Shown: positions 22,245-40,945, counted from the first letter of the stretch. The stretch is 64,000 bases of DNA from Candidatus Wolfebacteria bacterium (GCA_024654025.1 JANLIR010000002.1:21885-85884); one strand, 5' to 3'. Notes: generated by a model not told the origin, from the sequence alone. Numbers and translations: made by a program.

Positions 22245-22245
22245 T

Positions 22246-22833
22246 TTAAACTCTATAACTTATTGCTTCCTTAAAATACTTTATAATAAAATGGCAGACG
22301 CTCGCGTGAATGCTCTCAACAATTTCATATTTGCCCTTCTCTGTTGATACCAAAACTTTCGCGTCCGCCAATTCGTTCAACTTCCCGCCATCGAATCCGC
22401 TTAAACCGATGATTGGAATACCGCGTTCTTTGGCAACTTCAACGGCTTTGATGATATTTATGGAATTCCCGGAACTGCTTATCGCAACTAAAACATCGGA
22501 TTCCTGCAGATAATTTTTCAGCGGTCCGGCGAAAACCATATCATAACCCAAATCGTTCGCCCAAGCGGTTAACTCCGCATCGGTAGTGGGCAAGGCGATT
22601 GCCTGAAATCTTTTTATATCCTTATCGATATGCGCTCCAAAAACGGTTTTATTCAAATCTCCGACAAAATGTCTGGCAATAGCCAAAGACCCGCCGTTGC
22701 CGATAACGTAAATTCTGCCGTCACGCTCATAAGCGGCTTCTAAAATCTTGAGAGCCTTCGCTAATTCTTCTTTGGAAATCAATTTAAAATGCCGGCTTAT
22801 TTCGTCAAAAAATGATGAAATGTGATTATCCAT
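22246..22833 (-). CDS. gmhA: Sedoheptulose-7-phosphate isomerase (SIS domain)
   Basis: 195 aa SIS-domain protein (RIYVIGNGGSLAIARHFVGDL...AISSSGNS) in heptose-pathway context. Confidence 0.75.
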   Translation of the reverse strand: MDNHISSFFDEISRHFKLISKEELAKALKILEAAYERDGRIYVIGNGGSLAIARHFVGDLNKTVFGAHIDKDIKRFQAIALPTTDAELTAWANDLGYDMVFAGPLKNYLQESDVLVAISSSGNSINIIKAVEVAKERGIPIIGLSGFDGGKLNELADAKVLVSTEKGKYEIVESIHASVCHFIIKYFKEAISYRV

Positions 22834-22837
22834 AATC

Positions 22838-23887: not shown

Positions 23888-24490
23888 GTCGTTTTTTTAA
23901 AATTACTCGTGAATAAAACAATAAAAACTGAAAAAAATCCTGCAATATTTCTTGATCGCGACGGAACATTAACCCAACGCGCGGATTTAACTTGGAAAAA
24001 GAGTCAAATAAAAATTTCTCCCAAAATAACGCCGTTTTTGCGGCAATTTAACAAAAAAAACATTCCAATAATTATCATAACCAATCAGCCGGTTGTGGCG
24101 AGAGGATGGATTTCCGAAAAAGGAGTTGAAAAGCTTCATCAAATAATTCAGAAGCGGATTAAAAAACAAAAAGCGTTAATAAATAAATTTTATTTTTGCC
24201 CCCACCATCCCGAAGCAACCATAAAAAAATACAGAAAAAATTGCGATTGCCGGAAACCAAAAATCGGGTTATTTAAAAAAGCCGCTAAAGAATTTAATAT
24301 AAACCTTTCGCGTAGCGTAACAATCGGAGATATGACTCAGGATATTTTAGCAGGCAAAAAGGCGGGCACAAAAACGATATTAATCAATTCGGGTCACGGC
24401 GGCAGAGACAAAAAATACAATATTTCTCCCGAATACATAGCAAAAACAACGGCCGATGCTTTAAAACTAGCTCAAAAAATACTCAAATAA
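23876..24490 (+). CDS. gmhB: D,D-heptose 1,7-bisphosphate phosphatase (HAD superfamily)
   Basis: IFLDRDGTLTQ (HAD motif I), plus a Cys cluster FCPHHPEATIKKYRKNCDCRKP and a GD motif. Confidence 0.75.
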   Translation: MINQVVFLKLLVNKTIKTEKNPAIFLDRDGTLTQRADLTWKKSQIKISPKITPFLRQFNKKNIPIIIITNQPVVARGWISEKGVEKLHQIIQKRIKKQKALINKFYFCPHHPEATIKKYRKNCDCRKPKIGLFKKAAKEFNINLSRSVTIGDMTQDILAGKKAGTKTILINSGHGGRDKKYNISPEYIAKTTADALKLAQKILK

Positions 24491-24507: not shown

Positions 24508-25548
24508 TTATTTAAATATAATTTTAAATATTTCTTCAAATCTCTTTTCGTAAGTGTGCTCATTAGTAGTCCTTAAATAACCGGCCTCGGCGATTTTTTT
24601 GCGCTCTTTATCATTTTTTAAATAATAATTTATTTTATCAATTAAATCTTTAATGTCTTTATAAATCACAATTTCCTCTCCGATTTTGTAATAATCGCCT
24701 AAATTATCCGCCATAGAGGTCATCAAAAAACCTCCACAAGCCGATATTTCAAAATGACGGGCTTTTATTTGCGGAATTCCCCGATGAATCCAAGATTTGA
24801 AATTACTCCAAAAATTAAAGTCGGGCACAATCTTATCCATCGATCTTCTAAACAATAATCGCCCCAAAGAATTTTTATTTAAAAATCCCGGAGCCGGATT
24901 TAATGCCAAATTAATTTTGCTGGAAGAAAAAATTTCAACCATTTTATCCGAACTTATTCTGCCGTTTAGCCATCCGCTTCCATAACACTCCACATTAATT
25001 CCCTTATTTTTTAAAGCTGAAATTATTTTTTGCCGCGGCCGGCTCCAAGCTCCAACAAAACTGACATCCGGTCCGCTGTTCTGTTTATCATAATTAGACT
25101 TGAAAATGTCGCAATCGGCGGCCCATTGAGAATGAATAAAGTTTTTAACTCCATTTTTTATATACCTATCAACTGCTTTGGAATAGGTGGTGATTATCCA
25201 AGAAAAATGCGGAGCGTAGTGTTTGGAATAATTATCAAAACGCCAATGGTCATCGGAAAACCACGCCAAAGAAACGGTTTGTTCTTTTATTTTTTCAAGA
25301 ACCGAAATTAGTAGTTCATCCGTAAACATAAACGCTAAAAACAAATCCGGTTTTTCTTTATTGATTAAATCAAGAAGTTCGGCATTGCCCCGCTCGCGCC
25401 CCAACTCTAAAATCCTTTCATACGGAAAATCAATAATTTCAAGTCCTTTAGTCTTATTTAAAGCGCCCAGTACGCTATTATGTTCAAAACTAAGCCCCAG
25501 TCCCGGATCATAATTTGTATATTTTAATCCAGTGTATACTATTTTCAT
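24508..25548 (-). CDS. CgeB-family glycosyltransferase-like protein
   Basis: The C-terminal region ARHFEISACGGFLMTS matches the R.FE..ACG motif of Glyco_trans_1_2/CgeB proteins. Confidence 0.5.
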   Translation of the reverse strand: MKIVYTGLKYTNYDPGLGLSFEHNSVLGALNKTKGLEIIDFPYERILELGRERGNAELLDLINKEKPDLFLAFMFTDELLISVLEKIKEQTVSLAWFSDDHWRFDNYSKHYAPHFSWIITTYSKAVDRYIKNGVKNFIHSQWAADCDIFKSNYDKQNSGPDVSFVGAWSRPRQKIISALKNKGINVECYGSGWLNGRISSDKMVEIFSSSKINLALNPAPGFLNKNSLGRLLFRRSMDKIVPDFNFWSNFKSWIHRGIPQIKARHFEISACGGFLMTSMADNLGDYYKIGEEIVIYKDIKDLIDKINYYLKNDKERKKIAEAGYLRTTNEHTYEKRFEEIFKIIFK

Positions 25549-26252
25549 CGCTTAAAATTTTTTTTCTTTTTTGCCTCCCAAATCAAACAGTATTGGGAAT
25601 TTGAAAAAATGGAAACATCGTTAAAAAAATCTTTCAATATATTTCCCAAATCTTTCTTATTATACTCCCTAACATGGAATTTTGAGCCTGAAAAAACTTT
25701 ATAATTAGTGGGGTTCATGGGAGTAGAACCGATAAAAATTCCTTCGGGTTTTAAAATTTGAGTTATTTTAATTAATAATTTTTTAAAATTTTCTTCGCTA
25801 ATATGCTCTATGAACTCACTTGAAATAACGACGTCAAAATCGTTTGGAAGAACTGACAAATCCCCTGCTAAATCCATAGTTAAATATTTAATTTTCGGAT
25901 TAAAGCGGCGGAAACTTTCTATTTTATCGACACCAATGACATTTTTAACATTTTCGTTTTTGGAAATGCGTTCCGTTAGATACCCGTGCCCGCAGCCCAA
26001 ATCGAGAACTTTTCCGTACGCATTACCCGCTAAAACACCGGCGTAACTTTCAAAATATTCGTCGTCACTTTTCAACCCATTAAAATCAGGCCGTTCTTCA
26101 CTTGCAAAATCAAAATATTTACTATCAAAAAAAATAGAAAAATCGCGGAGTAATGGAACTCGCTTTATGTTCCACCTCGCTTTTCTTATAAAACTCCTCG
26201 TACTAGGATGATTTCTTAAAAAATTTTTAATTGCGGAAAAAATTTCTTTCAT
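25545..26252 (-). CDS. Class I SAM-dependent methyltransferase
   Basis: VLDLGCGHGYLTERI (motif I). Confidence 0.7.
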   Translation of the reverse strand: MKEIFSAIKNFLRNHPSTRSFIRKARWNIKRVPLLRDFSIFFDSKYFDFASEERPDFNGLKSDDEYFESYAGVLAGNAYGKVLDLGCGHGYLTERISKNENVKNVIGVDKIESFRRFNPKIKYLTMDLAGDLSVLPNDFDVVISSEFIEHISEENFKKLLIKITQILKPEGIFIGSTPMNPTNYKVFSGSKFHVREYNKKDLGNILKDFFNDVSIFSNSQYCLIWEAKKKKNFKR

Positions 26253-27223: not shown

Positions 27224-28705
27224 CTATAACTTTTTTAGTTTATTATACGCTTTAACGAAAGCCGATTTAAAAATGCTCCATCGGTGTTTTCTCCAATAAT
27301 ACGGGGCTTTCTCAAAAATCATCGTTTGAAGTTTTAGGGGAATTATCGATTTTAACCAAAAAACAACATTAAAAAATAATAACAAAATTTTATTGGATTT
27401 ATAAGGCGGGGATAGTTCCAGAATTGCTTTGAAAATACTTTTTCTAAAACAGGTATCTTTTTCCGGCAAAACATTTTTTTTCTTCAGTAAATAGTAGGTG
27501 AATATTTTTCCCCGTGGCGGCGCCAATCTTATCTGTCCCCTGTCTTTCCAGACCAAAGAAATATCGGACCGGTTTTCCAAAACCTCCGCGCATTTGTTAA
27601 ACCAATCCTCGTCTAAATATTCGCCGCCCGGTCGAGCATTAAATATATAACCCTCTCTTGATTCCGAAACTCCTTTTAGAAATAACTTAAAATAATCTTC
27701 ATCTTGAGAAAAAACCAGTTTAAGCTTCGGAAACTTTTTGCTTATTTCTTTTATTCCTTCACTCTTTTTGCCACAGACCACTATGTGTTCGAAATTCGTA
27801 TAACCCTGTTCGGACACGCTCTCTATGGTTTTTACCAATTTATCAAGGCTTTCGTCTCCCATAAACGGCGAAATAACGGATATTTTCGGCGTGCGCAGAT
27901 CAAATTTCCCATCGAACTTTTTTCCTGAACGCAAAAACTTAAAAGCGGAGTCATAAGACACTTTAGGAAAGGGATTATAAAAGCTGATTTCCGAACAAAT
28001 TAAAATATCGATCGGTTTAAGATTGTAAATTTTATAAATATTTTTAACCGAAATAGGAGCTACCGGATTAAAATATTTATTCGTATCGTTAATAAGATCT
28101 TGACGCGGCGACGGAGTAAGTTCGCCCTGACGATAATAATAAATATTTTTGTCGCTATAGCCGTCTCCTCCAAAAATAACAACTTTTGAAGCTCCTCCCA
28201 CTAAAGCGATATGAACCGCCGCCAACAAAGAATTACTAACCATAAAATGGAGAGGTTTTTGCTCATTAGGAACATCTTTGGCTTCGCTTAATCCGAAGAA
28301 AAAAAGTTTTTTGTCGTATTTTTTTAAAAAATCTTTGAGCTTGAAATCCTTACCCATCAAATCAAAAGTCCCCCGGTAAAACGAGGATGCCAAAACATTA
28401 TTGTCGCCTCTTTCAAGAAAATCTATGCTTCCTTTAATATACTCCGGCATTCCCTCGCGACTGCTGTTTAAAATCAGAGAAAAACGCTTTCCTATCTTCC
28501 CTAAAATATGATTTTCGGCGACCGAATAATTATTCATCCCGAAATAACAGATATCGACATTTTTTAATTCTTCAATCCTTTTTTCCAATTCGGCAATAGA
28601 GGGCCCTGCGGCAAGAATAGCCACCGGCCTTTTGTTGATAATCTTTCGCAAGCGATCTAACCGCTCTTTTGAGTTGGGCAAATAATCTTTCGATGAAAAG
28701 TCCAT
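27224..28705 (-). CDS. Two-domain transferase: N-terminal Maf/DUF115-like domain plus C-terminal GT2-like domain
   Basis: The N-terminus has a VAILAAGPS glycine-rich loop resembling motility-accessory-factor/DUF115 proteins. The C-terminal half ISVISPFMGDESLDKLVKTIESVSEQGYTNFEHIVVCG is GT-A-like. Confidence 0.4.
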   Translation of the reverse strand: MDFSSKDYLPNSKERLDRLRKIINKRPVAILAAGPSIAELEKRIEELKNVDICYFGMNNYSVAENHILGKIGKRFSLILNSSREGMPEYIKGSIDFLERGDNNVLASSFYRGTFDLMGKDFKLKDFLKKYDKKLFFFGLSEAKDVPNEQKPLHFMVSNSLLAAVHIALVGGASKVVIFGGDGYSDKNIYYYRQGELTPSPRQDLINDTNKYFNPVAPISVKNIYKIYNLKPIDILICSEISFYNPFPKVSYDSAFKFLRSGKKFDGKFDLRTPKISVISPFMGDESLDKLVKTIESVSEQGYTNFEHIVVCGKKSEGIKEISKKFPKLKLVFSQDEDYFKLFLKGVSESREGYIFNARPGGEYLDEDWFNKCAEVLENRSDISLVWKDRGQIRLAPPRGKIFTYYLLKKKNVLPEKDTCFRKSIFKAILELSPPYKSNKILLLFFNVVFWLKSIIPLKLQTMIFEKAPYYWRKHRWSIFKSAFVKAYNKLKKL

Positions 28706-28714
28706 TTTTTAAAA

Positions 28715-29659
28715 TTAAAGTTTTTTAGAAGCAACAACAAAAATATTGGAGGTTATTTCATTATCGCTTAATATTTTTCTGTATTCAGCGTCAAAATCTT
28801 TGAAAAGCGCGTTTAATTTATCGCCGATTTCCGAATGCTCCTTAGAAAATTCGATATTTGGCTTATCCAAACCGAAACGGCAATCTTCTTGAGGGCCGTT
28901 CATAAAATACCAATAAAAATGATTCAATAAATTATAGTCCTGGATAAAATGAATTTCGTCTATTTTATATCCGGTTTTTTCGAAAAGTTTTTCCAAACTT
29001 TTTTTGGAAAAATAGTGAGTATGCGCTTCGTGATAATAAAACCTTTGATAAGCCGGTATTTGCCACACTTTTAAAAGAGCGTCATACAAATTAGGGACCT
29101 CGATAAAAATTTTTCCTCCGTCTTTCAAATGCTTTTTAACATCAAATAAGAACTCCGCGGGATTTAATGTATGCTCTAATACTTGAAATGCGGCTATAAA
29201 ATCAAAGCTCTCTTTTTCGAAACCGCATTGGCTAAGCTCATTTTTACAAACCTTTATATTGAACTTATTTTCAACAAAATCAGCGCATTTGGAATCCAGC
29301 TCAACACCCTCGCATTTTTCGAAAGAATCTTTAATGTGCCGTAAAAATTGGCCGGCCGAACATCCAATTTCAAGAAATGATTTATTTTTATCAAAATATT
29401 TTTTAACGATATCGATACGGTCATCCTGATAATTTTTTCTCGAGTTAAAAATATCTTCGGGGTCGGATTCCGGTTTCTTTAAATGATCGGTAAATTTTTT
29501 TCTGTATTCGCTGTCGTAATATTCTTTTACGTTTAAATCACGCGGTTCCAAAACCCCCAAATCGCAATTCGGACAATAATAAACCCTGCCCTCCGTTCCC
29601 CCCCTTAGTGTTTGGGTTATTAAACTTAAATTGCCGTTGCCGCAAATTTTACATTCCAT
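28715..29659 (-). CDS. SAM-dependent methyltransferase with an N-terminal zinc ribbon
   Basis: CKICGN...YYCPNCD Cys4, then EIGCSAGQFLRHI (motif I). Confidence 0.65.
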   Translation of the reverse strand: MECKICGNGNLSLITQTLRGGTEGRVYYCPNCDLGVLEPRDLNVKEYYDSEYRKKFTDHLKKPESDPEDIFNSRKNYQDDRIDIVKKYFDKNKSFLEIGCSAGQFLRHIKDSFEKCEGVELDSKCADFVENKFNIKVCKNELSQCGFEKESFDFIAAFQVLEHTLNPAEFLFDVKKHLKDGGKIFIEVPNLYDALLKVWQIPAYQRFYYHEAHTHYFSKKSLEKLFEKTGYKIDEIHFIQDYNLLNHFYWYFMNGPQEDCRFGLDKPNIEFSKEHSEIGDKLNALFKDFDAEYRKILSDNEITSNIFVVASKKL

Positions 29660-29667
29660 TTTAAAAA

Positions 29668-30411
29668 TTACGCTTCTTTGGAAAAATTCGCTTTAAGATA
29701 ATCGTAAAGATTATTGCTTTTTTTAATGTCATATTCCAAATACTCAAAATCTTCCGGCCGATCAATCTCCACAATAATTGGAGTAATGAAACTCAAAATC
29801 CTCGGCCCAAAAACCATTTTACCTTCTTTAATAAAACCGCTTCTCACTATATCAACATAACCATTTGGGTGATACGCCTTGGGAAACATTTGACGCGGTA
29901 AATCATGATAATCAGACCGAGGATCATTCGGAAAAAACCCTTTAAAATATCCGTCTTCGCCAATTTGAAACATTTTTTGGGGCGGCTCTGCCAATTCATG
30001 AGCCGAGCGAAGAGATGTCGCCTGATCATCCGCTATAAAAATATCTATGGCTGAATCAATTAATTTTAAATCGCGAAAAGGCGTCGTCGGCCTTAAATAA
30101 ACCAATAAATCCGGAACTGCGCCTTCATTTTTTTCAAACCAATCAACAGCATGGCTTAACACGTCAAAATCCGTTGATTTATCTTGGGCAAATTCCGAAG
30201 GGCGCATGAACGGTACTTCAGCGCCATATTTTTTCGCAATTTCGGCGATTTCTTCGGAATCAGTCGAAACGATAGTCCTTTGGATATTTTTTGAAAGTTT
30301 GGAGGCAGCAATTGAATAAGCAATTAGCGGAAATCCGCCTAAAAGACGAACATTCTTTTTGGGGACGCCTTTTGATCCTCCTCTAGCCGGTATAATTGAG
30401 TAAATTTTCAT
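29668..30411 (-). CDS. CMP-sugar (acylneuraminate/Kdo-type) cytidylyltransferase
   Basis: MKIYSIIPARGGSKGVPKKNVRLLGGFPLIAYSI is the CMP-NeuAc/CMP-Kdo synthetase N-terminal signature. Confidence 0.75.
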   Translation of the reverse strand: MKIYSIIPARGGSKGVPKKNVRLLGGFPLIAYSIAASKLSKNIQRTIVSTDSEEIAEIAKKYGAEVPFMRPSEFAQDKSTDFDVLSHAVDWFEKNEGAVPDLLVYLRPTTPFRDLKLIDSAIDIFIADDQATSLRSAHELAEPPQKMFQIGEDGYFKGFFPNDPRSDYHDLPRQMFPKAYHPNGYVDIVRSGFIKEGKMVFGPRILSFITPIIVEIDRPEDFEYLEYDIKKSNNLYDYLKANFSKEA

Positions 30412-30475
30412 AAGAATAAAATATTAGGATAGTAAAAACATAGCGAAAAATTCGTTCTTGGTCAAATACAATAAT

Positions 30476-30506
30476 AAAAACCGCGGTCACATCACTGTGG
30501 CCGCGG
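30476..30506 (-). terminator. Rho-independent terminator downstream of the NeuB-like gene
   Basis: GC-rich hairpin CCGCGGTCACA-TCAC-TGTGGCCGCGG preceded on the + strand by AAAAA (a U-run on the minus-strand transcript). Confidence 0.6.
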
Positions 30507-30547
30507 CACTTTTCAAAACCCGAACAAGGTCCAGATAACCGCTTAAA

Positions 30548-31453
30548 TCACCTACCTCCGACATAATACGGCAGCAGGGTTTCCTTTCGTCTCAGTTTTT
30601 TCGCGATGGGAATTTCGGTCTCGAGAATTTCTTTCGTGTGGTTCCCGAGATAAGTCGGAAGCGATCGTAGCTCTTTTGTCAGCTTTACAAGCCCGCCGAC
30701 TTCCAAGCTGGCAGCTTGATCGCTGCCCCACATCGCCCGGTCCAAAGTGATGTGCCTTTCGACAACTCGGGCGCCAAGCGTCGCGGCAACAAGAGACGCG
30801 TACGCACCCACTTCGTGCCCCGAATAACCGATAATCGCTCTGGGGAATTCATTGATCAGCCGCGGTATGTTGTTAAGATGAAGCTCCGAGTCCTTCGACG
30901 GATAAGTGGAAGTGCAGTGAAGAATCACGAGCCCGTCTTCACCCAGAGTGTCAACGATCTTTTCGATCATCTTGTCATCGCTCATGCCAGTAGAAACGAT
31001 TACCTGCCGACCCTTAGACTTTACGTACTCCAAAAGTTCCCGGTCGGTGTTGGTGGCAGAAGCGATTTTGTAGCACGGCGGGTTATATTGCTCCAGAAAA
31101 TCCACGCTTTGTTCATCCCACGGCGAGGCAAACCACATTATGCCTTTTTCCTCACAGTAACAGTGGATTTCATCGTATTCATCCTTACCGAACTCCAGAC
31201 CCCTTTTTAAATCACCGTTGGTCACGCCAAACGGATTTTCCCGAGGCCGCGCCAACTCTTCGGAAGTATATACCACTTCAATCGTCCGCTTCTGGAATTT
31301 CACTGCGTCACAACCCGCTTCAACAGCAGCATCGATAAGTTGTTTGGTAATATCAATGTCTCCGTTGTGGTTGATGCCGATTTCCGCGATAACGAATACG
31401 GGCTGGCCTTCGCCCACCAGTTTCGGCCCGATCTTGACTATTCTCATCCTCAT
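30548..31453 (-). CDS. NeuB-family PEP-condensing sugar synthase (sialic acid / Kdn-9-P synthase-like); short form without a C-terminal SAF domain
   Basis: MRMRIVKIGPKLVGEGQPVFVIAEIGINHNGDIDITKQLIDAAVEAGCDAVKFQKRT is the NeuB/SpsE N-terminus. Only 301 aa. GC of sampled 60-mers is 48-65% against ~38% in neighbouring genes. Confidence 0.7.
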   Translation of the reverse strand: MRMRIVKIGPKLVGEGQPVFVIAEIGINHNGDIDITKQLIDAAVEAGCDAVKFQKRTIEVVYTSEELARPRENPFGVTNGDLKRGLEFGKDEYDEIHCYCEEKGIMWFASPWDEQSVDFLEQYNPPCYKIASATNTDRELLEYVKSKGRQVIVSTGMSDDKMIEKIVDTLGEDGLVILHCTSTYPSKDSELHLNNIPRLINEFPRAIIGYSGHEVGAYASLVAATLGARVVERHITLDRAMWGSDQAASLEVGGLVKLTKELRSLPTYLGNHTKEILETEIPIAKKLRRKETLLPYYVGGR

Positions 31454-31650
31454 CCCCTTTCCTTATGTTTTTTTTAAAATCTTGGTAGATTTGCTGGCAT
31501 CACTATAAAGATAAAAAGACAGTTAGTCAATAACGCCTAGAATTACCAAGCACTACGGCTCCACCCTTAATAATAGGTCTTAAAAAAAACCCCGTTGCAG
31601 TACCACACAAGCAACGGGGGCTTAACCCAAACCGTACGCAGGAGATTTTT

Positions 31651-33045
31651 TTAGACATCTCTAAATCCCCTGAAATTCACGTTTTTCTCCAGATACAACC
31701 GCGCAGCTGCCTCAATATGCCGCTCGGACTGATCGATATGAAATTTCTCGATCAGCTTTTTATTTACCTCAAACAATAATCTGTGCACCTTATCATCACT
31801 CATATCGGTAAAATTGACGGCCAGCAGATCGGAGTTTAAGTGTTTTCTTTCGTAAAAATCTTCCGGACCATCAAGAAGACCTTTTTCTATGGCGTAGTAA
31901 TACAACGGCGAACCAGGATACGGAGTAACCGGCCGGATAGTCCGAAGTTGAGAATGATCGTCATATTTCAACAAAAACTCCAATCCCATTCTCAACGACT
32001 GAGCCGTCTCGCCAATATTACCGAAAATAATATTGAATCCCGGGCTAATTCCCACCATAAGCGTATTTCTGATTCCGCTTTCAATCTGCTTTACCGTCAA
32101 CGCCTTATTCATTCTTTTCAGAGCCGCTTCGTCCATTGATTCAATGCCATAATTGATGAAAACACAGCCGGACTTTTTCATCAGCCGTAAAACATCCGGC
32201 TTAGCGTAATTGAGCCTGCCATTGCATTCCCAGTTTATTTTCAAATTCGCATCCAAAAAAACCTGGCACAACTCTTTTACACGCTGCTCTGAATTCATCA
32301 ACAATTCATCATAAAAGGCGAAATAATCTATCTGGTAGCAATCTTGAAGGGTTTTTATCTCCTCAACGATACTTCGCGAACTTCGAATCCTGAGCCCTTG
32401 GTCCATTCGATAACAAAAGTTGCATTTGAATTTACAGCCCCTTCCAGAAAGCATTATCATGCACCGCTGAGAATTCAAAATATTGGGCATTCTTGCCAGT
32501 GCGTAATGCTCCATAGGAAAAAGATCCCAGGCTGGAAACGGAATCCGATTAATATCCGCAATCAGTTCCCGCCTCTTGTTTTGGACGAACTGCCCGTTGT
32601 CGCAATCAAAAAAAGCAATGCCGCTAATATCCTTGAAGCTTCTGGAAGTTTCCAAAACGCTCAATAATTCCACAAAGGTTTCCTCGCCTTCGCCGATAAC
32701 CACCGCGTCAGCTCCGGTTTTTTTCAAAAAATATTCCGGTTCAGGAGAAGGGCCATGACCACCGATAACAAAAAACGGCCTGTTTTTGGAGTTATTTATC
32801 GCAACCGAAATCTTTAACAATTTCCGGTATTGATAATATCCCCCGATTACGCCGACGCCGATTACATCCCAGGCTTCGTTGTTCAAAAAATTAGTCAGGT
32901 GCTCTTCGGGCCAGTGATAAACGTCCTGATTGTAAATCCTTACCTCGTGTCCGGCCAAGCGGCAAGCTGACGCAAGATACGCCAACCCAAGCGGAAAAAA
33001 AGAAATGTGCGAATCATTGTCGTAAGCGACCAAAAGAACCTTCAT
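31651..33045 (-). CDS. B12-binding radical SAM enzyme (class B radical SAM, probable methyltransferase)
   Basis: N-terminal B12-binding domain (MKVLLVAYDNDSHISFFPLGLAYLASA), then a GRGCKFKCNFC CxxxCxxC cluster. The start was chosen at 33045 because of a strong AGGGGGA RBS 5 nt upstream; the track start at 33135 is probably too long. Confidence 0.7.
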   Translation of the reverse strand: MKVLLVAYDNDSHISFFPLGLAYLASACRLAGHEVRIYNQDVYHWPEEHLTNFLNNEAWDVIGVGVIGGYYQYRKLLKISVAINNSKNRPFFVIGGHGPSPEPEYFLKKTGADAVVIGEGEETFVELLSVLETSRSFKDISGIAFFDCDNGQFVQNKRRELIADINRIPFPAWDLFPMEHYALARMPNILNSQRCMIMLSGRGCKFKCNFCYRMDQGLRIRSSRSIVEEIKTLQDCYQIDYFAFYDELLMNSEQRVKELCQVFLDANLKINWECNGRLNYAKPDVLRLMKKSGCVFINYGIESMDEAALKRMNKALTVKQIESGIRNTLMVGISPGFNIIFGNIGETAQSLRMGLEFLLKYDDHSQLRTIRPVTPYPGSPLYYYAIEKGLLDGPEDFYERKHLNSDLLAVNFTDMSDDKVHRLLFEVNKKLIEKFHIDQSERHIEAAARLYLEKNVNFRGFRDV

Positions 33046-33138
33046 CGTATCCCCCTTTAATCCATTTTTTATTTTTAAGCTTCCGCTATGAGTTTTATCC
33101 AAAAACCGCAAAGTGTCAATAAACCAAAAATTCAAAAA

Positions 33139-33978
33139 TTACCAAGCGCTCCGGCCGCCTTCAATAACAAGCGTTGCTCCGGTCATATATGAAGAGGCAT
33201 CTGAAACAAGAAACAAAACAGCGGCGTTATATTCGTTTTGATCAGCCATTCTTCCCATAGGAATAAGATTAGAAAGTTTCTGCAAAAACTCTTCGTTATG
33301 ATCTCTATACACTCCGCCCGGGGCAATAGCGTTTACCCTGACTCCATTTTTCGCCCAATAGGTCGCTAGATACTTCGTAAGCCCAATAAAAGCATGCTTC
33401 TCAACGGAATAAGTCACCGGCTTTACCGGCTGTTCAAATTCAGGCACTCCCTCTTTCTTGTAAATCCGCTGATCCGGAGCGATAATTCCCAAATCGGAAG
33501 CGATATTTAAAATAACTCCTTTGTTTTGAGACGCCATATAACTACCAAACACCTGACTGCATAAAAAAGCTCCTTTAAGCCCGACATTAAGCGCTTCATC
33601 CCATTCTGTTTCGCTAAAATTTTCAAAACGAGAGGAAATGTCTTTTTCTTTTCCTTGTATTGTGGGGTTCGGATTATGCGAAGCGCAATTTATCAGTACG
33701 TCAATTCGGTTGTATTGTTTTAAAATCAATTCTTTAGCTTTCTCCAGTTCATCTTTATTCGCTATATCAACTTTTAATCCCATCACTTCAACTTTGTATT
33801 TTTCTTTAAAACTGGTCACTAAAGATTTTAATTTTTCTTCATCAACGTCAAAAAGGACAGGAATGCCTTTCGCGTCTAATATCGCTTGCGCAAACCGGCT
33901 TCCCAAAAATCCCGCGCCGCCGGTAATAATACATATTCTGCCGTCAATTAAAAATTTTTGAAGCGTATTTTCATCCAT
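33139..33978 (-). CDS. Short-chain dehydrogenase/reductase (SDR)
   Basis: ICIITGGAGFLGSRFAQAIL Rossmann motif; YSVEKHA is close to YxxxK. Confidence 0.7.
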   Translation of the reverse strand: MDENTLQKFLIDGRICIITGGAGFLGSRFAQAILDAKGIPVLFDVDEEKLKSLVTSFKEKYKVEVMGLKVDIANKDELEKAKELILKQYNRIDVLINCASHNPNPTIQGKEKDISSRFENFSETEWDEALNVGLKGAFLCSQVFGSYMASQNKGVILNIASDLGIIAPDQRIYKKEGVPEFEQPVKPVTYSVEKHAFIGLTKYLATYWAKNGVRVNAIAPGGVYRDHNEEFLQKLSNLIPMGRMADQNEYNAAVLFLVSDASSYMTGATLVIEGGRSAW

Positions 33979-33988
33979 AATTTATATT

Positions 33989-34933
33989 TTATAATTTAGG
34001 CCAAAGCGCCGGATCAACTTGCTTCGGATCATCAATGGCTAATTTTTGTAAAGCGCTTATAGTATCTTCGCTAAGCGGCCCCGCCGAAATCGCGCTAATC
34101 ATGGATTTTAAATGTTCCTTTCGATTAGTACCGACTAAAACACTAGTAACTGATTCGTTTGAAATAGCAAAACGAATAGCGAGCGTAGGCAAATCCATGC
34201 CCGCTTCCTTCGCGATATTATCAGCTTTATCCGCATTTAGTTTTAAAGACGCTAACTCGTCCGGAAGCTTCGCCCTAAGAGGCGTTAAAGATCCCTTAAG
34301 AAGAACAGAACGGTTAACAACCCCTACATTACTTTTTTTTGCGTATGGCAAAACTTCTTTTGCCATACGCTGGTCTAAAATACTATATGCCACTTGAATT
34401 ACATCAAAAAATCCGCTTTCAATGGCCGCAAGAGCATTATCTTCGCCACGCAAAGAAATCCCGAAATTTTTTACCTTTCCTTCACTTCTAATCTTACTTA
34501 AAATATCCGTTACCTCGCCTTTTTCAATATCAACACGCGTTCCCCCATGAAGATAAAGCAATGGCAAGACATCAAGTTGAAGTTTTTTCAAACTTGTTTC
34601 AACTTCATCACGGACGCGAAGTTCCATCTCATCGTACGGAAGTTTTTCTCCTTTTTCCAAAAATTGAGCGCATTTCGTTCCCACAAGAATATCCGGGTTT
34701 TTCAAAATTCCCGACCTGCCAATTCGCTCCTCTGAAAGAGCGTAAACATGAGCGGTATCAAAATAAGTGACGCCCATATCAGCCGCGGCTTTAAGCAAAT
34801 AATCCGCTTCGTCGTCAGAAGGCAAATGACGTTCTCCTATGCCGTATGCAAAACCGATTTCGGCAGTGCCCAAACCAATAAGAGACACTTCCTTTTCGGT
34901 ACGACCTAGTAACCGTGATAAAATCTTATCCAT
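33989..34933 (-). CDS. Aldo/keto reductase
   Basis: 314 aa AKR-like (VTYFDTAHVYA...), with a predicted TIM-barrel oxidoreductase architecture. Confidence 0.65.
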   Translation of the reverse strand: MDKILSRLLGRTEKEVSLIGLGTAEIGFAYGIGERHLPSDDEADYLLKAAADMGVTYFDTAHVYALSEERIGRSGILKNPDILVGTKCAQFLEKGEKLPYDEMELRVRDEVETSLKKLQLDVLPLLYLHGGTRVDIEKGEVTDILSKIRSEGKVKNFGISLRGEDNALAAIESGFFDVIQVAYSILDQRMAKEVLPYAKKSNVGVVNRSVLLKGSLTPLRAKLPDELASLKLNADKADNIAKEAGMDLPTLAIRFAISNESVTSVLVGTNRKEHLKSMISAISAGPLSEDTISALQKLAIDDPKQVDPALWPKL

Positions 34934-35423
34934 TATTTAAAATATTATCAGCCCTGTCTTTTAATATCAAATCACAAATTTCTCTAACAGCGTGGTCGCC
35001 TCCTTTTCTTGTAGTTACATAATGCGCTATTTTTTTACACTCCTCGTCTCCGTCTGCAACTGTAAAGGCGGTGCCAACAAATTTTAAACATTCAAGGTCA
35101 TTTATATCGTCTCCCATAAACGCCGTTTCTTCGACTAAAATATTTTCTCGCTCGATAAGTTGCTTTAAAATATCTATTTTTTTATCAGCGCTCTGAAAAC
35201 ATTCTATTTCCATCTTTTCGCATCTTTTTTTAACAATCAAATTCTTTTCTTTAGAAATGACGGCTAGTTTTATCCCGGCATTCTTTAACTCCGAGAAGCG
35301 CAAAGTATCCTTCCGGCTGCAAATAACGCTTTCAGTTCCGTTTTGATCTGTTAATACTTTGCCGTCGGTAAAAACGCCGTCGAAATCGAAAACTATCAAT
35401 TTGATTTTAGAAAAATCTTTCAT
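34926..35423 (-). CDS. KdsC-family HAD phosphatase (Kdo-8-P / Kdn-9-P phosphatase-like)
   Basis: IKLIVFDFDGVFTDGKV (motif I DxDGV) and AFMGDDINDLE (motif IV); 165 aa, typical of the C0 subfamily. Confidence 0.75.
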   Translation of the reverse strand: MKDFSKIKLIVFDFDGVFTDGKVLTDQNGTESVICSRKDTLRFSELKNAGIKLAVISKEKNLIVKKRCEKMEIECFQSADKKIDILKQLIERENILVEETAFMGDDINDLECLKFVGTAFTVADGDEECKKIAHYVTTRKGGDHAVREICDLILKDRADNILNNG

Positions 35424-35437
35424 TTTTAAATCTTTAA

Positions 35438-36700
35438 TTAATTTCCCGCGGACGAAAGTATCGCCTCCGTGATAACCATAACCGCCTCACGAATGGCTTC
35501 AGCGGTTATAGTTAAAGGAGGGGCTATTTTTATAGATTTTTTAAAAGTACAAACCGGCAGAACTCCGTTATAAATGCATTTTTTAACAATCTCCGTAGCA
35601 ATGTCGGCATTTTCAAAAATTATACCCGCAATCAGCCCCTTCACGTTTACAAGCTTAACCAAACTTAAATCTGCAAGATTGCCGATTTCCTTCTCAAAAA
35701 TTTGAATCGTTTCTTGACGTTTTACGCTTTGCTCTTCGGAACTTAAAAACTCTAAATTTGCCAATCCCGCCGCGCAACAAATTGGATTCCCGGAATGAGT
35801 TCCGTGCAAATCAGTATTTTCGTCAACATCAGCCAATTCTTTTCTCATTAAAACCGCTGAAATAGGCAGGGACGAAGATATGCCCTTACCTACACAAATC
35901 AAATCCGGCTCTAAATCGCCGTAAGTCATATATCCGTATACAGGCCCCATCCGATAAAATCCGGATTGCATTTCGTCAAAACAAACCAAAGCTCCGGCTT
36001 CTTTAGCAAATTTATACAAGTCGCCTATAAATTTTTCTGGATAAAACCAAGCTCCCCATCCTTGGAATGTCTCAAGAAAAAAAGCGGCAATCTGATCCTT
36101 TGGGGGCAACTTACTTTCGTCAAACTGAACAAAATCTTCATAAGGAAAGTCCAAAAAATAAACATCGTCGTCAGACACATTAGCCCATTGAGCGTTACTT
36201 TTATTTACTCCTATTAAATCATTACTCAAACCTCTTCCATGATAACTACCCGTAAAAGTGATTATATATTTTTTATTATTTTTTTTAGCCCATAGTTTTA
36301 TCAGTTTATACGCGCCATCAACAGCTTCGGACCCGGAATTTAATAGAACAACCTTGCTGAAATATTTTGGAGATATTTCCAATAGCTTAGAAATAAATTT
36401 ATATTTTATAGCTGTCGGATAATTGTAAGAGAACATCAAATCCGAATCTAACTGCTTTTTTATGGCTTCTTTTATAAAAGGGTTGGAGTGGCCGGCGTTG
36501 GCGACAAAAATACCGGAAGTTAAATCTATCCATTTGTTTCCCTGCTCGTCATAAACTGAAAAATCAATCGCTTTATCCCAAGTTAAAGAAATAGGATTGA
36601 CCGCCGGAATCGGCTCCAGTTCGGATATTTTTTCATATAATTCATTATTTTCCAGTGAAAAATCTTTTCGTATCTGCCTATATTTTGTATTAATTTTCAT
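35438..36700 (-). CDS. Class III PLP-dependent aminotransferase
   Basis: 420 aa; ...LLNSGSEAVDGAYKLIKLWA...FTGSYHGR...DEMQSGFYRMGPVYG..., with a conserved Lys in ICVGKGISS. Confidence 0.7.
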   Translation of the reverse strand: MKINTKYRQIRKDFSLENNELYEKISELEPIPAVNPISLTWDKAIDFSVYDEQGNKWIDLTSGIFVANAGHSNPFIKEAIKKQLDSDLMFSYNYPTAIKYKFISKLLEISPKYFSKVVLLNSGSEAVDGAYKLIKLWAKKNNKKYIITFTGSYHGRGLSNDLIGVNKSNAQWANVSDDDVYFLDFPYEDFVQFDESKLPPKDQIAAFFLETFQGWGAWFYPEKFIGDLYKFAKEAGALVCFDEMQSGFYRMGPVYGYMTYGDLEPDLICVGKGISSSLPISAVLMRKELADVDENTDLHGTHSGNPICCAAGLANLEFLSSEEQSVKRQETIQIFEKEIGNLADLSLVKLVNVKGLIAGIIFENADIATEIVKKCIYNGVLPVCTFKKSIKIAPPLTITAEAIREAVMVITEAILSSAGN

Positions 36701-37547
36701 ATAAATTTATGCCGAATTCATTAAATTTATTTTTAATCCATTCCAATTGCCTTTTAAAAATTTCTATCCCTTCGTCATCGCGATAAGCCTGTATGGTAAA
36801 AAACCCACTATAACCAATTTTAGAAAGTCCGGTAAAAATTTTATCAAATTGCGTGTCTCCTGTTCCTAATTCTACAGAACCAGAACCAATTTTCCTATCT
36901 TTTATGTGAATATTACTGATTTTATTGCCATAAGCCACAAATTCTTTTTGCGGGTCATACCCCAAAAAAGCGCTGTTTCCAGTATCATAATTTACCGTGA
37001 CCCGTCTGGAATTAAAATTATTGAGCAATTGAGTAAAAGGCTCGGGAGCGAGATCCGTTTCCAAAGAAAGATTGACTTCACTTTTTTCCAGAAAATCTAT
37101 TATCAGCTTAACATTTTCTGAAAACTGTTTAATATCTTCCGAGCCTAAAATCGCTGTTTTTTCAAGGCAAGGAAAAACAATGTTAGATACGCCCATTTTA
37201 GAAGCGTTGGCTATCAGCTTTTTTAAAACTTCAAGATTTTGCTTAATGTCGCCGTCCGTAACATTGTGGATTGGCGCTTCCATAAAATAATCGGCGCAGA
37301 TATTTTTTACCAAAACCCCCGTTTTATCGCTCAATTCAATGATTTCTTTAAGGCCTTCGTCAGTCATAAGAGGATTATTTTGAAAATTTTCATAATCAAA
37401 TAAAAATTCTATTGAGCCCAAGCCCAATTCTTTCGCTATTAGGAATTCATCCTGCCAATACTCGGCTGGATGGGCTTGATAACGCCCTTTGTGTTTTGGG
37501 AGCAATCTGCCTTGCATAACCCCTATTCTATTAACCGATTTATTCAT
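36690..37547 (-). CDS. Sugar-phosphate isomerase/epimerase (xylose-isomerase-like TIM barrel)
   Basis: 285 aa, AP-endonuclease-2/xylose-isomerase-like fold predicted from IGVMQGRLLP...LGSIEFLFD. Confidence 0.5.
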   Translation of the reverse strand: MNKSVNRIGVMQGRLLPKHKGRYQAHPAEYWQDEFLIAKELGLGSIEFLFDYENFQNNPLMTDEGLKEIIELSDKTGVLVKNICADYFMEAPIHNVTDGDIKQNLEVLKKLIANASKMGVSNIVFPCLEKTAILGSEDIKQFSENVKLIIDFLEKSEVNLSLETDLAPEPFTQLLNNFNSRRVTVNYDTGNSAFLGYDPQKEFVAYGNKISNIHIKDRKIGSGSVELGTGDTQFDKIFTGLSKIGYSGFFTIQAYRDDEGIEIFKRQLEWIKNKFNEFGINLYEN

Positions 37548-38281
37548 AAATCATTTTTAAACATGATAACAGCTTTTTCGTATCTTTCGGGTGTCCCTAT
37601 GTCTATAAACCTTCCGCTGCCTTTAAATCCATAACAATTAAGCTCCAAAACTTTCGGAATTAAATCATGCTCAAGGGAAAAAGAATCAGCCTTAGGCATA
37701 TTTTTAAAAATATCTTTTTTAACAAGATAAATTCCCGCATTCACCAAGCCCTTCTCCTTTTTTTGATTTTTTCCTTTAAAACGGCTGATTTTATTATTAT
37801 TGTCCAACTCGACACTTCCGTAATCAGAAACATCGTCAACTTCTGTCAACGCAATCGAAAGCAAAGAATCATTTTTTAAATGCATGTCGAAAAAATCGAA
37901 AAAATCGATATCAAAAAAAGAGTCCCCATTCATCACCATAAAATGATCGCCAGATATTAAAAATTCGGTGTTTTTAATCGCACCCCCAGTGCCCAAAGGA
38001 GCGCTTTCCTCAGAGAATAAAATTTCGGCGTTTTCGTAATTTTCATAACGATTAATTATCTGATCTTTTAAATATCCAACGCTTAAAATTATTCGCTTAA
38101 ATCCCTTTGATAAAAGATTATCAATTATAATATCCAAAAACGCCTTATTATCCCCCATAGGAGCCAGCACTTTCGGACGGTCGTTTATAACGCTTTTCAA
38201 TCTCTCCCCTTTCCCGCCGCAAAGAATAACAACATCAATATCCTTTAAATTCTTATGGGTGAAAGGTTTCTGTTGGCGCAT
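37544..38281 (-). CDS. Sugar-phosphate nucleotidyltransferase (second copy)
   Basis: IDVVILCGGKGERLKSVINDRPKVLAPM. Confidence 0.7.
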   Translation of the reverse strand: MRQQKPFTHKNLKDIDVVILCGGKGERLKSVINDRPKVLAPMGDNKAFLDIIIDNLLSKGFKRIILSVGYLKDQIINRYENYENAEILFSEESAPLGTGGAIKNTEFLISGDHFMVMNGDSFFDIDFFDFFDMHLKNDSLLSIALTEVDDVSDYGSVELDNNNKISRFKGKNQKKEKGLVNAGIYLVKKDIFKNMPKADSFSLEHDLIPKVLELNCYGFKGSGRFIDIGTPERYEKAVIMFKNDL

Positions 38282-40851: not shown

Positions 40852-40945
40852 AACTCCCCCTATCTTTCTGTATTATTTTTTTGGGAAATCTACTAACGAA
40901 ACTATATAGCTCTAAAGTATTTGAAGTCAAGTAAAAAATAAGCGT

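What the first reader, a model, noticed from the sequence alone, without database searches (positions are those of the whole stretch)
27224..31453. Kdn/nonulosonic-acid-like module with a Maf-type transferase
Four genes sit together. A NeuB-family synthase (short, no SAF domain). A KdsC-type HAD phosphatase at 34926..35423, which implies a phosphorylated-sugar substrate as in the Bacteroides Kdn-9-P route. A CMP-sugar synthetase. A two-domain protein whose N-terminus resembles DUF115/Maf enzymes, which transfer nonulosonic acids onto proteins. Two SAM methyltransferases are also present. Together they predict a CMP-activated 8- or 9-carbon acidic sugar delivered to a protein or glycan acceptor.
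Basis: inference. Interest (0 to 1): 0.55.

Follow-up and report, generated by a model that had tools for sequence, protein, structure and literature searches.

The report
Modified CMP-ulosonic acid sugar pathway
A candidate-phyla-radiation bacterium (Wolfebacteria) carries a conserved but uncharacterised gene set that most likely builds an acidic sialic-acid-like sugar from a phosphorylated sugar, modifies it, activates it with CMP and attaches it to a surface glycan; related genes in other phyla hint that the sugar may have ten carbons, not nine.

Summary

The synthase belongs to a tight, uncharacterised clade. The clade is separate from NeuB, PseI, SpsE and the characterised Kdn-9-P synthase (35% identity). 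A KdsC-like phosphatase lies nearby in 66 of those 80 loci, and fusions tie synthase, phosphatase and cytidylyltransferase together. A phosphorylated-substrate CMP-ulosonic acid route is therefore well supported.

Plain Kdn is not shown. The CPR cassette adds an AprD4-like B12/radical-SAM enzyme, an SDR, an AKR, a class-III aminotransferase, a UlaE-like epimerase and a methyltransferase, which points to a tailored (deoxy/amino/methyl) sugar. Fusions and adjacency with the heptose-7-phosphate isomerase GmhA, without heptose kinases, suggest a C10 product in this clade.

The surrounding Wzx/Bac_transf/Wzy_C locus favours a glycan acceptor, not flagellin. Verdict: a new variant of a known kind, of moderate to high interest.

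The parts
30548..31453 (-). Short NeuB-family PEP-condensing synthase (no SAF domain). Proposed ulosonate-omega-phosphate synthase.
   Evidence: PF03102 at 242.9 bits. Below the NeuB (228 against 399.65) and PseI (196 against 340.25) equivalog cut-offs. Forms its own clade. GC 0.508 against about 0.35 in neighbours, and flanked by terminator-like hairpins.
34926..35423 (-). KdsC-type HAD phosphatase. Proposed ulosonate-omega-phosphate phosphatase.
   Evidence: TIGR01670 at 113.8, above the 106.95 cut-off. Below the KdsC equivalog and Kdn-9-P phosphatase equivalog cut-offs. Has the DFDGV motif. A homologue lies near the synthase in 66-67 of 80 loci. HAD::NeuB and CMPtr-HAD-NeuB fusions exist.
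29668..30411 (-). CMP-ulosonic acid synthetase (acylneuraminate cytidylyltransferase family).
   Evidence: PF02348. PseF-like at 146.6 bits against KdsB models at 45.6 bits or less. 50-63% identical orthologues lie next to the synthase in CPR loci. CMPtr::KdsC and NeuB::CMPtr fusions exist.
28715..29659 (-). SAM methyltransferase of the cassette (probably O- or N-methylation of the sugar).
   Evidence: PF13489 at 91.3 bits. 40-52% identical orthologues sit between CMPtr and the DUF115 gene in L086 and L094.
27224..28705 (-). Two-domain transferase. Residues 1-265 have the DUF115/MptE/Maf/GT42 sialyltransferase fold (proposed CMP-ulosonate transferase). Residues 270-493 have a GT-A (GT2-like) fold with a degenerate DXD.
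   Evidence: Orthologues in L001-L004 and L086 are 40-46% identical.
31651..33135 (-). B12-binding-domain radical SAM enzyme. Tailoring step, either AprD4-like diol dehydration or C-methylation.
   Evidence: PF02310 plus PF04055. Best solved relative is AprD4 6fd2, E 2.9e-19. No NCBIfam equivalog reached.
33139..33978 (-). SDR oxidoreductase, resembling sugar-acid dehydrogenases and PtmA. Tailoring step, possibly the reductase partner of the radical SAM enzyme.
   Evidence: 51-54% identical orthologues in L086 and L094. Homologues in 24 of 80 loci at about 50% identity.
33989..34933 (-). Aldo/keto reductase; tailoring step.
   Evidence: PF00248 at 141.9 bits. 52-60% identical orthologues in L085, L086 and L094.
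35438..36700 (-). Class-III (omega) aminotransferase. Proposed to introduce an amino group.
   Evidence: PF00202 at 230.5 bits. Nearest solved structures are acetylornithine and GABA aminotransferases. 37-63% identical orthologues in four CPR loci.
36690..37547 (-). Xylose-isomerase-like TIM barrel. UlaE-like sugar-phosphate 3-epimerase or isomerase.
   Evidence: PF01261. Best PDB match is UlaE 3cqh, E 7.9e-13. Homologues next to the synthase in Chloroflexi-type loci and in L086/L094.
38253..39257 (-). GHMP sugar kinase (HddA-like), co-conserved with the cassette in CPR. Role unassigned; probably an anomeric kinase for a second, NDP-activated sugar.
   Evidence: 57-65% identical orthologues in L001, L085 and L086.
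37544..38281 (-). HddC-like sugar-1-phosphate nucleotidyltransferase, partner of the GHMP kinase.
   Evidence: PF00483. NF049965 at 175 bits, below the 300 cut-off.
22246..22833 (-). Divergent GmhA-like SIS isomerase. Possible source of the aldose phosphate; it also belongs to an NDP-heptose gene set at 21537-24490.
   Evidence: TIGR00441 at 111.8 bits, below the 209.45 cut-off. The catalytic tetrad is the variant H/D/E/H.
25545..26252 (-).
   Evidence: PF13649/PF08241. No orthologue found in the related loci.

Best explanation
The genes from about 27224 to 37547 encode a 'phosphorylated-route' pathway for a tailored, CMP-activated 3-deoxy-2-ulosonic acid. Shown by family assignment and comparative genomics: the short NeuB enzyme condenses PEP with an aldose that carries a terminal phosphate, the KdsC-type HAD phosphatase removes that phosphate, and the PseF/NeuA-like enzyme makes the CMP-sugar. 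Inferred: the aldose phosphate is manno-type (mannose-6-P or D-glycero-D-manno-heptose-7-P), supplied by an SIS/GmhA-type isomerase and possibly pre-epimerised by the UlaE-like TIM-barrel enzyme. Also inferred: the free ulosonic acid is tailored by the AprD4-like radical SAM enzyme with the adjacent SDR (deoxygenation, or alternatively C-methylation), by the AKR and class-III aminotransferase (oxidation then transamination to an amine, as in Kdo8N or gentamicin 6'-amination), and by the methyltransferase. The DUF115/GT42-fold domain of the 493-aa protein then transfers the sugar from CMP. The likely acceptor is an undecaprenyl-phosphate-linked oligosaccharide assembled by the surrounding locus (Bac_transf initiator, GT2/GT1 enzymes, Wzx flippase, Wzy_C-TPR ligase/polymerase), not flagellin.
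Against: No enzyme of this clade has been assayed, so the substrate and every tailoring step are inferred. No equivalog threshold is met for NeuB, PseI, PseF, KdsC or Kdn-9-P phosphatase. The order of tailoring relative to CMP activation is unknown. The GT2-like domain lacks a conserved DXD, so its activity is doubtful. The radical SAM assignment (dehydratase or methylase) rests on about 20-30% similarity. KdsC sits 3.5 kb from the synthase, separated by terminator-like hairpins, so co-transcription is not shown. A DegT/epimerase pair at 41386-43495 could feed a canonical Pse/Leg-type route instead.
Confidence: 0.7

Rival explanations
1. Plain Kdn pathway. The synthase is a Kdn-9-P synthase (PEP plus mannose-6-P), KdsC is a Kdn-9-P phosphatase, and CMP-Kdn is transferred unmodified. 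The neighbouring redox, aminotransferase and radical SAM genes would serve other sugars of the locus.
For: [quoted passage not shown] It is linked to a KdsC-type phosphatase. NF058599 Kdn-9-P phosphatase scores E 6.4e-30. Man-6-P is a common metabolite, which would explain loci that have only synthase plus phosphatase (the Melainabacteria type).
Against: The synthase is only 35% identical to the Kdn-9-P synthetase and does not group with it in the tree. The phosphatase scores below the Kdn-9-P phosphatase cut-off (104 against 180). AT3, AKR, SDR and MT are co-conserved with the synthase at 37-63% identity across CPR loci. GmhA fusions are unexplained unless the GmhA-like domain works as a phosphomannose isomerase.
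Confidence: 0.2
2. Ten-carbon route. The clade's substrate is D-glycero-D-manno-heptose-7-phosphate made by GmhA, giving a 3-deoxy-dec-2-ulosonic acid 10-phosphate. The pathway GmhA, NeuB-short, KdsC, CMP-transferase would mirror KdsD, KdsA, KdsC, KdsB of Kdo synthesis.
For: NeuB::GmhA fusions exist whose C-domain scores 209.0 against the gmhA cut-off of 209.45. KdsC::GmhA fusions exist in 5 loci. The GmhA catalytic residues H61/E65/Q172/H180 and the phosphate loop are retained at 37-45% identity to E. coli GmhA. GmhA-like genes lie within 10 kb in 23 of 80 loci, and 22 of those have no HldE/HddA kinase or GmhB. SIS_2 sits directly upstream of the synthase in CPR loci L085 and L095. Mass spectrometry has detected CMP-activated C10 ulosonic acids of unknown origin in Magnetospirillum (preprint 10.64898/2026.04.20.719630).
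Against: 57 of 80 loci show no GmhA within 10 kb. In this window the SIS gene is 8 kb away, is a divergent H/D/E/H variant, and sits with a complete NDP-heptose gene set. In CPR loci a GHMP kinase is co-conserved, so heptose may simply be a second sugar of the same glycan. A GmhA-like enzyme could isomerise fructose-6-P to mannose-6-P. The Magnetospirillum C10 sugars are diacetamido (Leg/Pse-like) and might arise by C-methylation.
Confidence: 0.3
3. Canonical pseudaminic/legionaminic-type pathway. The DegT aminotransferase and SDR-fold dehydratase/epimerases at 41386-43495 make a 2,4-diamino-2,4,6-trideoxyhexose, which the NeuB homologue condenses with PEP in the manner of PseI/LegI.
For: DegT resembles PseC (201.5 bits) and the cytidylyltransferase resembles PseF (146.6 bits). 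The SDR has PtmA similarity (127.9 bits).
Against: All scores are far below the equivalog cut-offs. The window has no PseH/PseG/NeuC-type genes (no Epimerase_2, no hexapeptide acetyltransferase). The synthase lacks the SAF domain and is tied to a phosphatase in 66 of 80 loci. CPR genomes that do have a Leg/Pse set carry a separate SAF-containing NeuB beside NeuB-short (L085, L095).
Confidence: 0.07
4. Kdo-like 8-carbon pathway in which the NeuB-family enzyme replaces KdsA (PEP plus arabinose-5-P).
For: The phosphatase is of the KdsC subfamily. c23-type Capsule_synth (KpsC/KpsS-like, CMP-Kdo-dependent by established knowledge) genes follow the synthase in some Chloroflexi loci.
Against: The cytidylyltransferase is much closer to PseF/NeuA than to KdsB (146.6 against 45.6 bits or less). 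The associated isomerases are GmhA-type, not KdsD-type.
Confidence: 0.05

Closest known systems
Kdn pathway of Bacteroides thetaiotaomicron and Prymnesium parvum (Kdn-9-P synthase, Kdn-9-P phosphatase, CMP-Kdn synthetase)
   Same: It uses the same three-step logic: a NeuB-family synthase acting on a phosphorylated aldose, a KdsC-family HAD phosphatase, and a CTP_transf_3 cytidylyltransferase. The P. parvum synthase is also short (312 aa) and, by inspection of its translated sequence, shows no extra C-terminal domain (PMC6200933).
   Different: The synthase is 35% identical and forms a separate clade. The phosphatase scores below the Kdn-9-P phosphatase cut-off. This cassette adds radical SAM, SDR, AKR, aminotransferase and methyltransferase genes, and the clade shows GmhA fusions.
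Kdo pathway KdsD-KdsA-KdsC-KdsB
   Same: It follows the same sequence: SIS-family isomerase, PEP-condensing synthase, KdsC-type phosphatase, CMP-transferase. The phosphatase belongs to the same TIGR01670 subfamily.
   Different: The synthase is NeuB-fold, not KdsA/DAHP-synthase-fold. The isomerase is GmhA-type, not KdsD-type. The cytidylyltransferase is NeuA/PseF-like.
Animal Neu5Ac-9-phosphate route (NANS, NANP, CMAS)
   Same: It is also a phosphorylated route with a NeuB-family synthase (established knowledge).
   Different: NANS has a SAF/antifreeze-like domain and uses ManNAc-6-P. The window has no UDP-GlcNAc 2-epimerase or ManNAc kinase.
Maf (DUF115) flagellin nonulosonic-acid transferases and GT42 sialyltransferases (CstII, Cst-I)
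   Different: Sequence similarity to PF01973 is below threshold. The domain is fused to a GT-A domain instead of Maf's flanking domains. No flagellin or flagellar genes are in the window. The acceptor is probably a lipid-linked glycan.
Aminoglycoside sugar tailoring (AprD4/AprD3 deoxygenation; GenK/GenQ/GenB1 C-methylation, oxidation, class-III transamination) and Kdo8N formation (KdnB/KdnA)
   Same: It combines a B12-domain radical SAM enzyme, an adjacent SDR and a class-III aminotransferase acting on a sugar. AprD4 is the nearest solved relative of the radical SAM enzyme.
   Different: Similarity is low (83 bits against an AprD4 model cut-off of 500). The substrate here would be an ulosonic acid, not an aminoglycoside. 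The analogy rests on my own knowledge of those pathways and was not tested.

Membership tests
NeuB family (PF03102) | Pfam NeuB TIM-barrel domain above the gathering score | tested here: met
   242.9 bits against 22.1, covering residues 39-273
N-acetylneuraminate synthase NeuB / pseudaminate synthase PseI (equivalogs) | Score above the TIGR03569 / TIGR03586 cut-offs, and a C-terminal SAF domain | tested here: not met
   228.4 against 399.65 and 196 against 340.25. No PF08666 hit; the protein ends at residue 301.
Kdn-9-phosphate synthase | Orthology to a characterised Kdn-9-P synthase (P. parvum CAMPEP_0191217894 or B. thetaiotaomicron BT1714) | tested here: inconclusive
   35% identity over 280 aa to the P. 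parvum enzyme. The NJ tree puts the P. parvum enzyme outside the clade, but deep nodes are poorly supported. The BT1714 sequence could not be fetched.
Kdn-9-phosphate synthase | Activity on mannose-6-phosphate but not on mannose | not testable with these tools
   Needs an enzyme assay.
KdsC-type HAD phosphatase subfamily (TIGR01670) | Score above the subfamily cut-off | tested here: met
   113.8 against 106.95. The DFDGV nucleophile motif is present.
Kdo-8-P phosphatase KdsC / Kdn-9-P phosphatase (equivalogs) | Score above the NF007019 / NF058599 cut-offs | tested here: not met
   119.2 against 208 and 104.4 against 180
Acylneuraminate cytidylyltransferase family (PF02348) | Pfam domain above the gathering score | tested here: met
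   74.4 against 22.6. The PseF equivalog is not reached (146.6 against 205.7).
DUF115 / MptE-like (PF01973), including Maf | Sequence match above the Pfam gathering score | tested here: not met
   18.5 against 34.6 bits for the window protein. 17 of 32 homologues hit at E <= 0.01, the best at 7.5e-7.
DUF115 / MptE-like (PF01973), including Maf | Shared three-dimensional fold | tested here: met
Maf flagellin glycosyltransferase | Genomic association with flagellin or flagellar genes and a protein acceptor | tested here: not met
   No flagellar gene among the ORFs of the 64-kb window that were scanned against Pfam. The context is a Wzx/Bac_transf/Wzy_C glycan locus. The acceptor itself is not testable here.
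GT2 (PF00535) GT-A glycosyltransferase | Pfam domain above the gathering score, and a DXD metal/nucleotide motif | tested here: inconclusive
   21.7 against 23.3 bits for the window protein. 20 of 32 homologues hit, the best at 1.2e-15. The fold matches SpsA and K4CP. The position aligned to the SpsA DD is not conserved (RPGGE here).
GmhA sedoheptulose-7-P isomerase (for the fused or neighbouring SIS domains of the clade) | TIGR00441 cut-off and catalytic H61/E65/Q172/H180 | tested here: inconclusive
   The P0042 C-domain scores 209.0 against 209.45. The catalytic tetrad is conserved in 16 of 19 SIS sequences aligned with E. coli GmhA. The window's own SIS scores 111.8 bits with the variant H/D/E/H.

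The most novel reading that the evidence does not exclude
The short NeuB clade is a heptose-7-phosphate:PEP condensing enzyme. With GmhA, a KdsC-type phosphatase and a NeuA/PseF-like cytidylyltransferase it would form a previously undescribed four-step pathway to CMP-activated ten-carbon 3-deoxy-2-ulosonic acids. In CPR bacteria these would be further deoxygenated, aminated and methylated by a radical-SAM/SDR/AKR/class-III aminotransferase/methyltransferase set. This would give a genetic basis for the 'higher-carbon ulosonic acids' so far seen only by mass spectrometry.
Probability: 0.3. Interest if true: 0.8.

Novelty: new variant of a known kind. Interest (0 to 1): 0.58.

Why it matters
Sialic-acid-like sugars cap microbial surfaces and govern recognition by hosts, phages and partner cells. 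CPR bacteria live attached to other microbes, so their surface glycans are likely central to that lifestyle, yet none has been characterised. This locus shows that a Wolfebacterium, and a conserved cassette in several other CPR lineages, encodes a complete phosphorylated-route ulosonic acid pathway with unusual tailoring and a new DUF115-GT-A transferase architecture. It is unassayed and currently annotated only as 'N-acetylneuraminate synthase family'. Its repeated fusion with GmhA gives a concrete, cheap biochemical test for the origin of C10 ulosonic acids.

Tried and rejected
- **Exact-sequence look-ups.** Look-ups of the window NeuB and of P0001 found no record, so the source contig could not be fetched. 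Taxonomy rests on the source names of P0001 and P0121, both Candidatus Wolfebacteria.
- **Literature.** Searches for Patescibacteria plus nonulosonic, CPR plus N-acetylneuraminate synthase, and NeuB plus GmhA plus fusion gave nothing relevant.
- **Whole-protein Foldseek.** The 493-aa model returned only GT-A hits, because the C-domain dominates. The N-domain had to be modelled alone.
- **BT1714.** The P. parvum sequence from the supplement of PMC6200933 was used instead.
- **Nonomuraea homologue.** The homologue (H1, 50% identity) was mis-extracted and gave a spurious long branch. It is ignored in the tree.
- **Consensus scans.** The terminator scan missed the two hairpins flanking NeuB, because of a loop longer than 8 nt or a stem mismatch. 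They were shown by folding instead. Promoter-like sites are not enriched over shuffles (42 against 36.8).
- **SpsE grouping rejected.** The idea that the NeuB homologue belongs with 'SpsE of unrelated function' does not hold. SpsE is the best PDB hit only by a small margin (139 against 130 and 124 bits) and falls in another branch.
- **Maf as flagellin transferase rejected.** There is no flagellar context.


Full report
**Source and setting.** The best protein matches are 100% identical entries named Candidatus Wolfebacteria, from a 248-kb MAG contig. The finding lies inside a long, mostly co-directional minus-strand glycan locus spanning about 16908-50606. The locus opens with a Bac_transf initiating transferase, a Wzx-type flippase and a GMD-like dehydratase on the plus strand. 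It ends with a Wzy_C-TPR protein.

**Checking the observation.**
- 30548-31453 is a NeuB-family protein of 301 aa with no SAF domain. PF03102 scores 242.9 bits, but the protein is below the NeuB and PseI equivalog cut-offs.
- 29668-30411 is a CTP_transf_3 cytidylyltransferase. It is closest to PseF (146.6 bits) and far from the KdsB models (45.6 bits or less).
- 34926-35423 passes the KdsC-subfamily model TIGR01670 (113.8 against 106.95). It does not pass the Kdo-8-P or Kdn-9-P phosphatase equivalogs. This gene lies outside the stated coordinates.
- 28715-29659 and 25545-26252 are SAM methyltransferases.

**The synthase clade.** The NeuB homologue has thousands of close relatives. CPR relatives (Yanofskybacteria, Sungiibacteriota) are 62-75% identical. 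The best 80 loci, at 51-66% identity, come from Saccharibacteria, Peregrinibacteria, Acidobacteriota, Chloroflexota, Melainabacteria, Myxococcota, Planctomycetota, Acidocella and an archaeon.

A neighbour-joining tree places these sequences in one tight clade. The clade is separate from N. meningitidis NeuB/BpsE, PGAP-named PseI and NeuB, B. subtilis SpsE (1VLI), the short Leptospira enzyme 6NCS, a SAF-containing CPR paralogue, and the biochemically characterised P. parvum Kdn-9-P synthetase. Deep nodes of the tree are weakly supported. I translated the P. parvum sequence from the supplement of PMC6200933; it is 35% identical over 280 residues.

**Evidence for a phosphorylated substrate and a CMP end-product.** A homologue of the window's KdsC lies within 10 kb of the synthase in 66-67 of 80 loci, usually immediately downstream. 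Domain fusions among relatives that are 44-50% identical to the synthase include CMP-transferase-HAD-NeuB (P0249), HAD::NeuB (P0261) and NeuB::CMP-transferase (P0251). CMP-transferase::KdsC fusions occur in at least nine of the loci. These fusions tie the three activities into one pathway. The logic is the same as in the Kdn pathway of B. thetaiotaomicron and P. parvum (PMC6200933) and, with a different synthase fold, the Kdo pathway.

**What the substrate might be.** Two close relatives (P0042 and P0081, 68% identical) are NeuB::SIS fusions. Their C-domain scores 209.0 bits against the gmhA cut-off of 209.45. In the tree they sit next to the CPR subclade. Five loci encode KdsC::GmhA fusions. 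The fused and neighbouring SIS domains are 37-45% identical to E. coli GmhA. They keep H61, E65, Q172, H180 and the S119-T120-S121-S124 phosphate loop. A GmhA-like gene lies within 10 kb in 23 of 80 loci. In 22 of those there is no HldE- or HddA-type kinase and no GmhB. GmhA without the rest of the NDP-heptose pathway suggests that heptose-7-phosphate is consumed directly. Condensation with PEP would then give a ten-carbon ulosonic acid.

This remains a hypothesis, for four reasons:
- 57 of 80 loci lack a nearby GmhA.
- A GmhA-like enzyme could isomerise fructose-6-P to mannose-6-P, giving Kdn.
- In this window the SIS gene (22246-22833) is 8 kb away, is a divergent H/D/E/H variant, and sits in a complete HddA/GmhB/HddC-like set.
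- An HddA-like GHMP kinase (38253-39257) is itself co-conserved with the cassette in CPR at 57-65% identity. Heptose may therefore simply be a second sugar of the same glycan.

[quoted passage not shown] This shows that such sugars exist, but it does not link them to this clade.

**The CPR cassette is larger than four genes.** In Yanofskybacteria (L001-L004), Sungiibacteriota (L085) and two further MAGs (L086, L094) the synthase is accompanied by orthologues of the following genes:

| Gene | Identity to window orthologue |
|---|---|
| Cytidylyltransferase | 50-63% |
| Class-III aminotransferase | 37-63% |
| Aldo/keto reductase | 52-60% |
| SDR | 51-54% |
| KdsC | 46-52% |
| Methyltransferase | 40-52% |
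| DUF115 protein | 40-46% |
| B12-domain radical SAM enzyme(s) | 22-30% |
| Xylose-isomerase-like TIM barrel | 31-34% |

The nearest solved relative of the radical SAM enzyme is AprD4, a radical SAM 1,2-diol dehydratase that works with a reductase (E 2.9e-19). Here an SDR follows it after a 3-nt gap. The TIM-barrel protein is closest to the ketose-phosphate 3-epimerase UlaE. The aminotransferase is closest to omega-aminotransferases.

By analogy with known chemistry, I infer that the ulosonic acid is deoxygenated or C-methylated, oxidised and transaminated to an amino sugar, and methylated. The analogues are AprD4/AprD3, GenK/GenQ/GenB1 and Kdo8N formation. This analogy comes from my own knowledge and was not tested. 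The order of these steps and the positions they modify are unknown.

**Acceptor.** No flagellar genes were found among the window ORFs scanned against Pfam. The transferase is embedded among GT2 and GT1-like genes, a Wzx flippase, a Bac_transf initiator and a Wzy_C-TPR protein. Transfer to a lipid-linked oligosaccharide is therefore the most economical reading. Large PG_binding_1/fn3 surface proteins encoded next door are possible final carriers, but that is speculation. In Melainabacteria the synthase-phosphatase pair follows fliO, so elsewhere the same sugar may serve flagellin glycosylation.

**Other contexts of the clade.** In Acidobacteriota and relatives the synthase-KdsC pair is inserted between RfbF/RfbG/RfbH-like genes and a ThDP-dependent acetolactate-synthase-like enzyme plus an FkbM methyltransferase, with no cytidylyltransferase nearby. 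The 2-keto acid may there be a ThDP donor for a branched higher sugar. I did not follow this further.

**Local anatomy.** The synthase gene has GC 0.508 (GC3 0.579) against about 0.35 for its neighbours. It is bracketed by GC-rich hairpins followed by U-tracts, at about 31582-31620 and about 30476-30507. A TTGACT-17-TATAGT promoter-like site lies upstream at 31530..31502. It looks like an insulated single-gene unit, possibly exchanged recently.

**Verdict.** It is too specific on two points (Kdn; Maf-type protein glycosylation) and too narrow on a third (four genes; 8-9 carbons). The system is a new variant of a known kind. The enzyme clade, the tailoring set and the DUF115-GT-A architecture are all uncharacterised, and the GmhA link gives a directly testable route to C10 ulosonic acids.

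Noticed in passing
window 30476-31620: The NeuB-short gene has GC 0.508 (GC3 0.579) against about 0.35 in its neighbours. It is flanked by two hairpin-plus-U-tract terminator-like elements and has a promoter-like TTGACT-17-TATAGT site upstream. It looks like an insulated, possibly recently acquired single-gene unit. The two B12-radical SAM genes are also GC-rich (0.43-0.45).
   Followed up: partly
window 21537-24490: A complete NDP-heptose-type gene set is present: an NTP transferase, a divergent GmhA-like SIS with an H/D/E/H tetrad instead of H/E/Q/H, an HddA-like GHMP kinase, and a GmhB-like HAD on the opposite strand. A second HddA/HddC-like pair lies at 37544-39257.
   Followed up: partly
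window 39361-41380: A second B12-domain radical SAM enzyme, closest to HpnJ (159 bits, far below the cut-off), is followed by a HIT-family protein. Their role in the glycan locus is unknown.
   Followed up: no
window 43507-46250 and 19753-20703: A split transketolase (TK_N plus TK_C) sits inside the glycan locus next to a near-threshold GDP-L-fucose synthase (490.3 against 500 bits). A GMD-like dehydratase lies on the plus strand. Split TK or E1-type ThDP enzymes also accompany the cassette in Yanofskybacteria and in L086.
   Followed up: no
window 50769-55724, 56001-59255, 8665-12894: Three very large proteins (1651, 1084 and 1409 aa) are encoded here. They carry PG_binding_1, CarboxypepD_reg, fn3 or Lamin-tail domains. 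They are probably cell-surface proteins and possible glycan carriers.
   Followed up: no
L010, L021, L027, L041, L046, L057, L065, L073 (Acidobacteriota and others): The NeuB-short plus KdsC pair is embedded between RfbF/RfbG/RfbH-like genes and a 600-aa ThDP enzyme plus an FkbM methyltransferase, with no CMP-transferase nearby. The ulosonic acid may serve there as a ThDP-activated donor for a branched higher-carbon sugar.
   Followed up: no
L009, L013, L024, L032, L037, L043 and other Melainabacteria/Gastranaerophilales loci: The NeuB-short plus KdsC pair lies directly downstream of a FliO-family gene and outside any glycan cluster. This hints at flagellum-linked use of the same sugar.
   Followed up: no
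L085 16954-18357 (Sungiibacteriota CP066690.1): A bAvd accessory gene and a reverse transcriptase (RVT_1), the signature of a diversity-generating retroelement, lie about 6 kb from the ulosonic acid cassette.
   Followed up: no
L092 3287-4831 (E. coli plasmid NZ_CP145673.1): A 514-aa NeuB-family protein lies next to an inositol-monophosphatase-family gene on an IncX1/IncY plasmid. It groups with the P. parvum Kdn-9-P synthetase in the NJ tree (73% bootstrap). This may be a plasmid-borne phosphorylated-route ulosonic acid module.
   Followed up: no
window 14241-14855: A 204-aa protein has a PaaX central / Cas2-like domain and winged-helix hits, next to a thioredoxin reductase-like gene. No CRISPR context was examined.
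   Followed up: no
window 3676-5217 (-) and 4991-6838 (+): The listed ORFs of a GlxA-barrel protein and of the cofactor-independent phosphoglycerate mutase overlap by about 230 nt on opposite strands. The iPGM Pfam match begins at residue 103, so its true start is probably further downstream.
   Followed up: no
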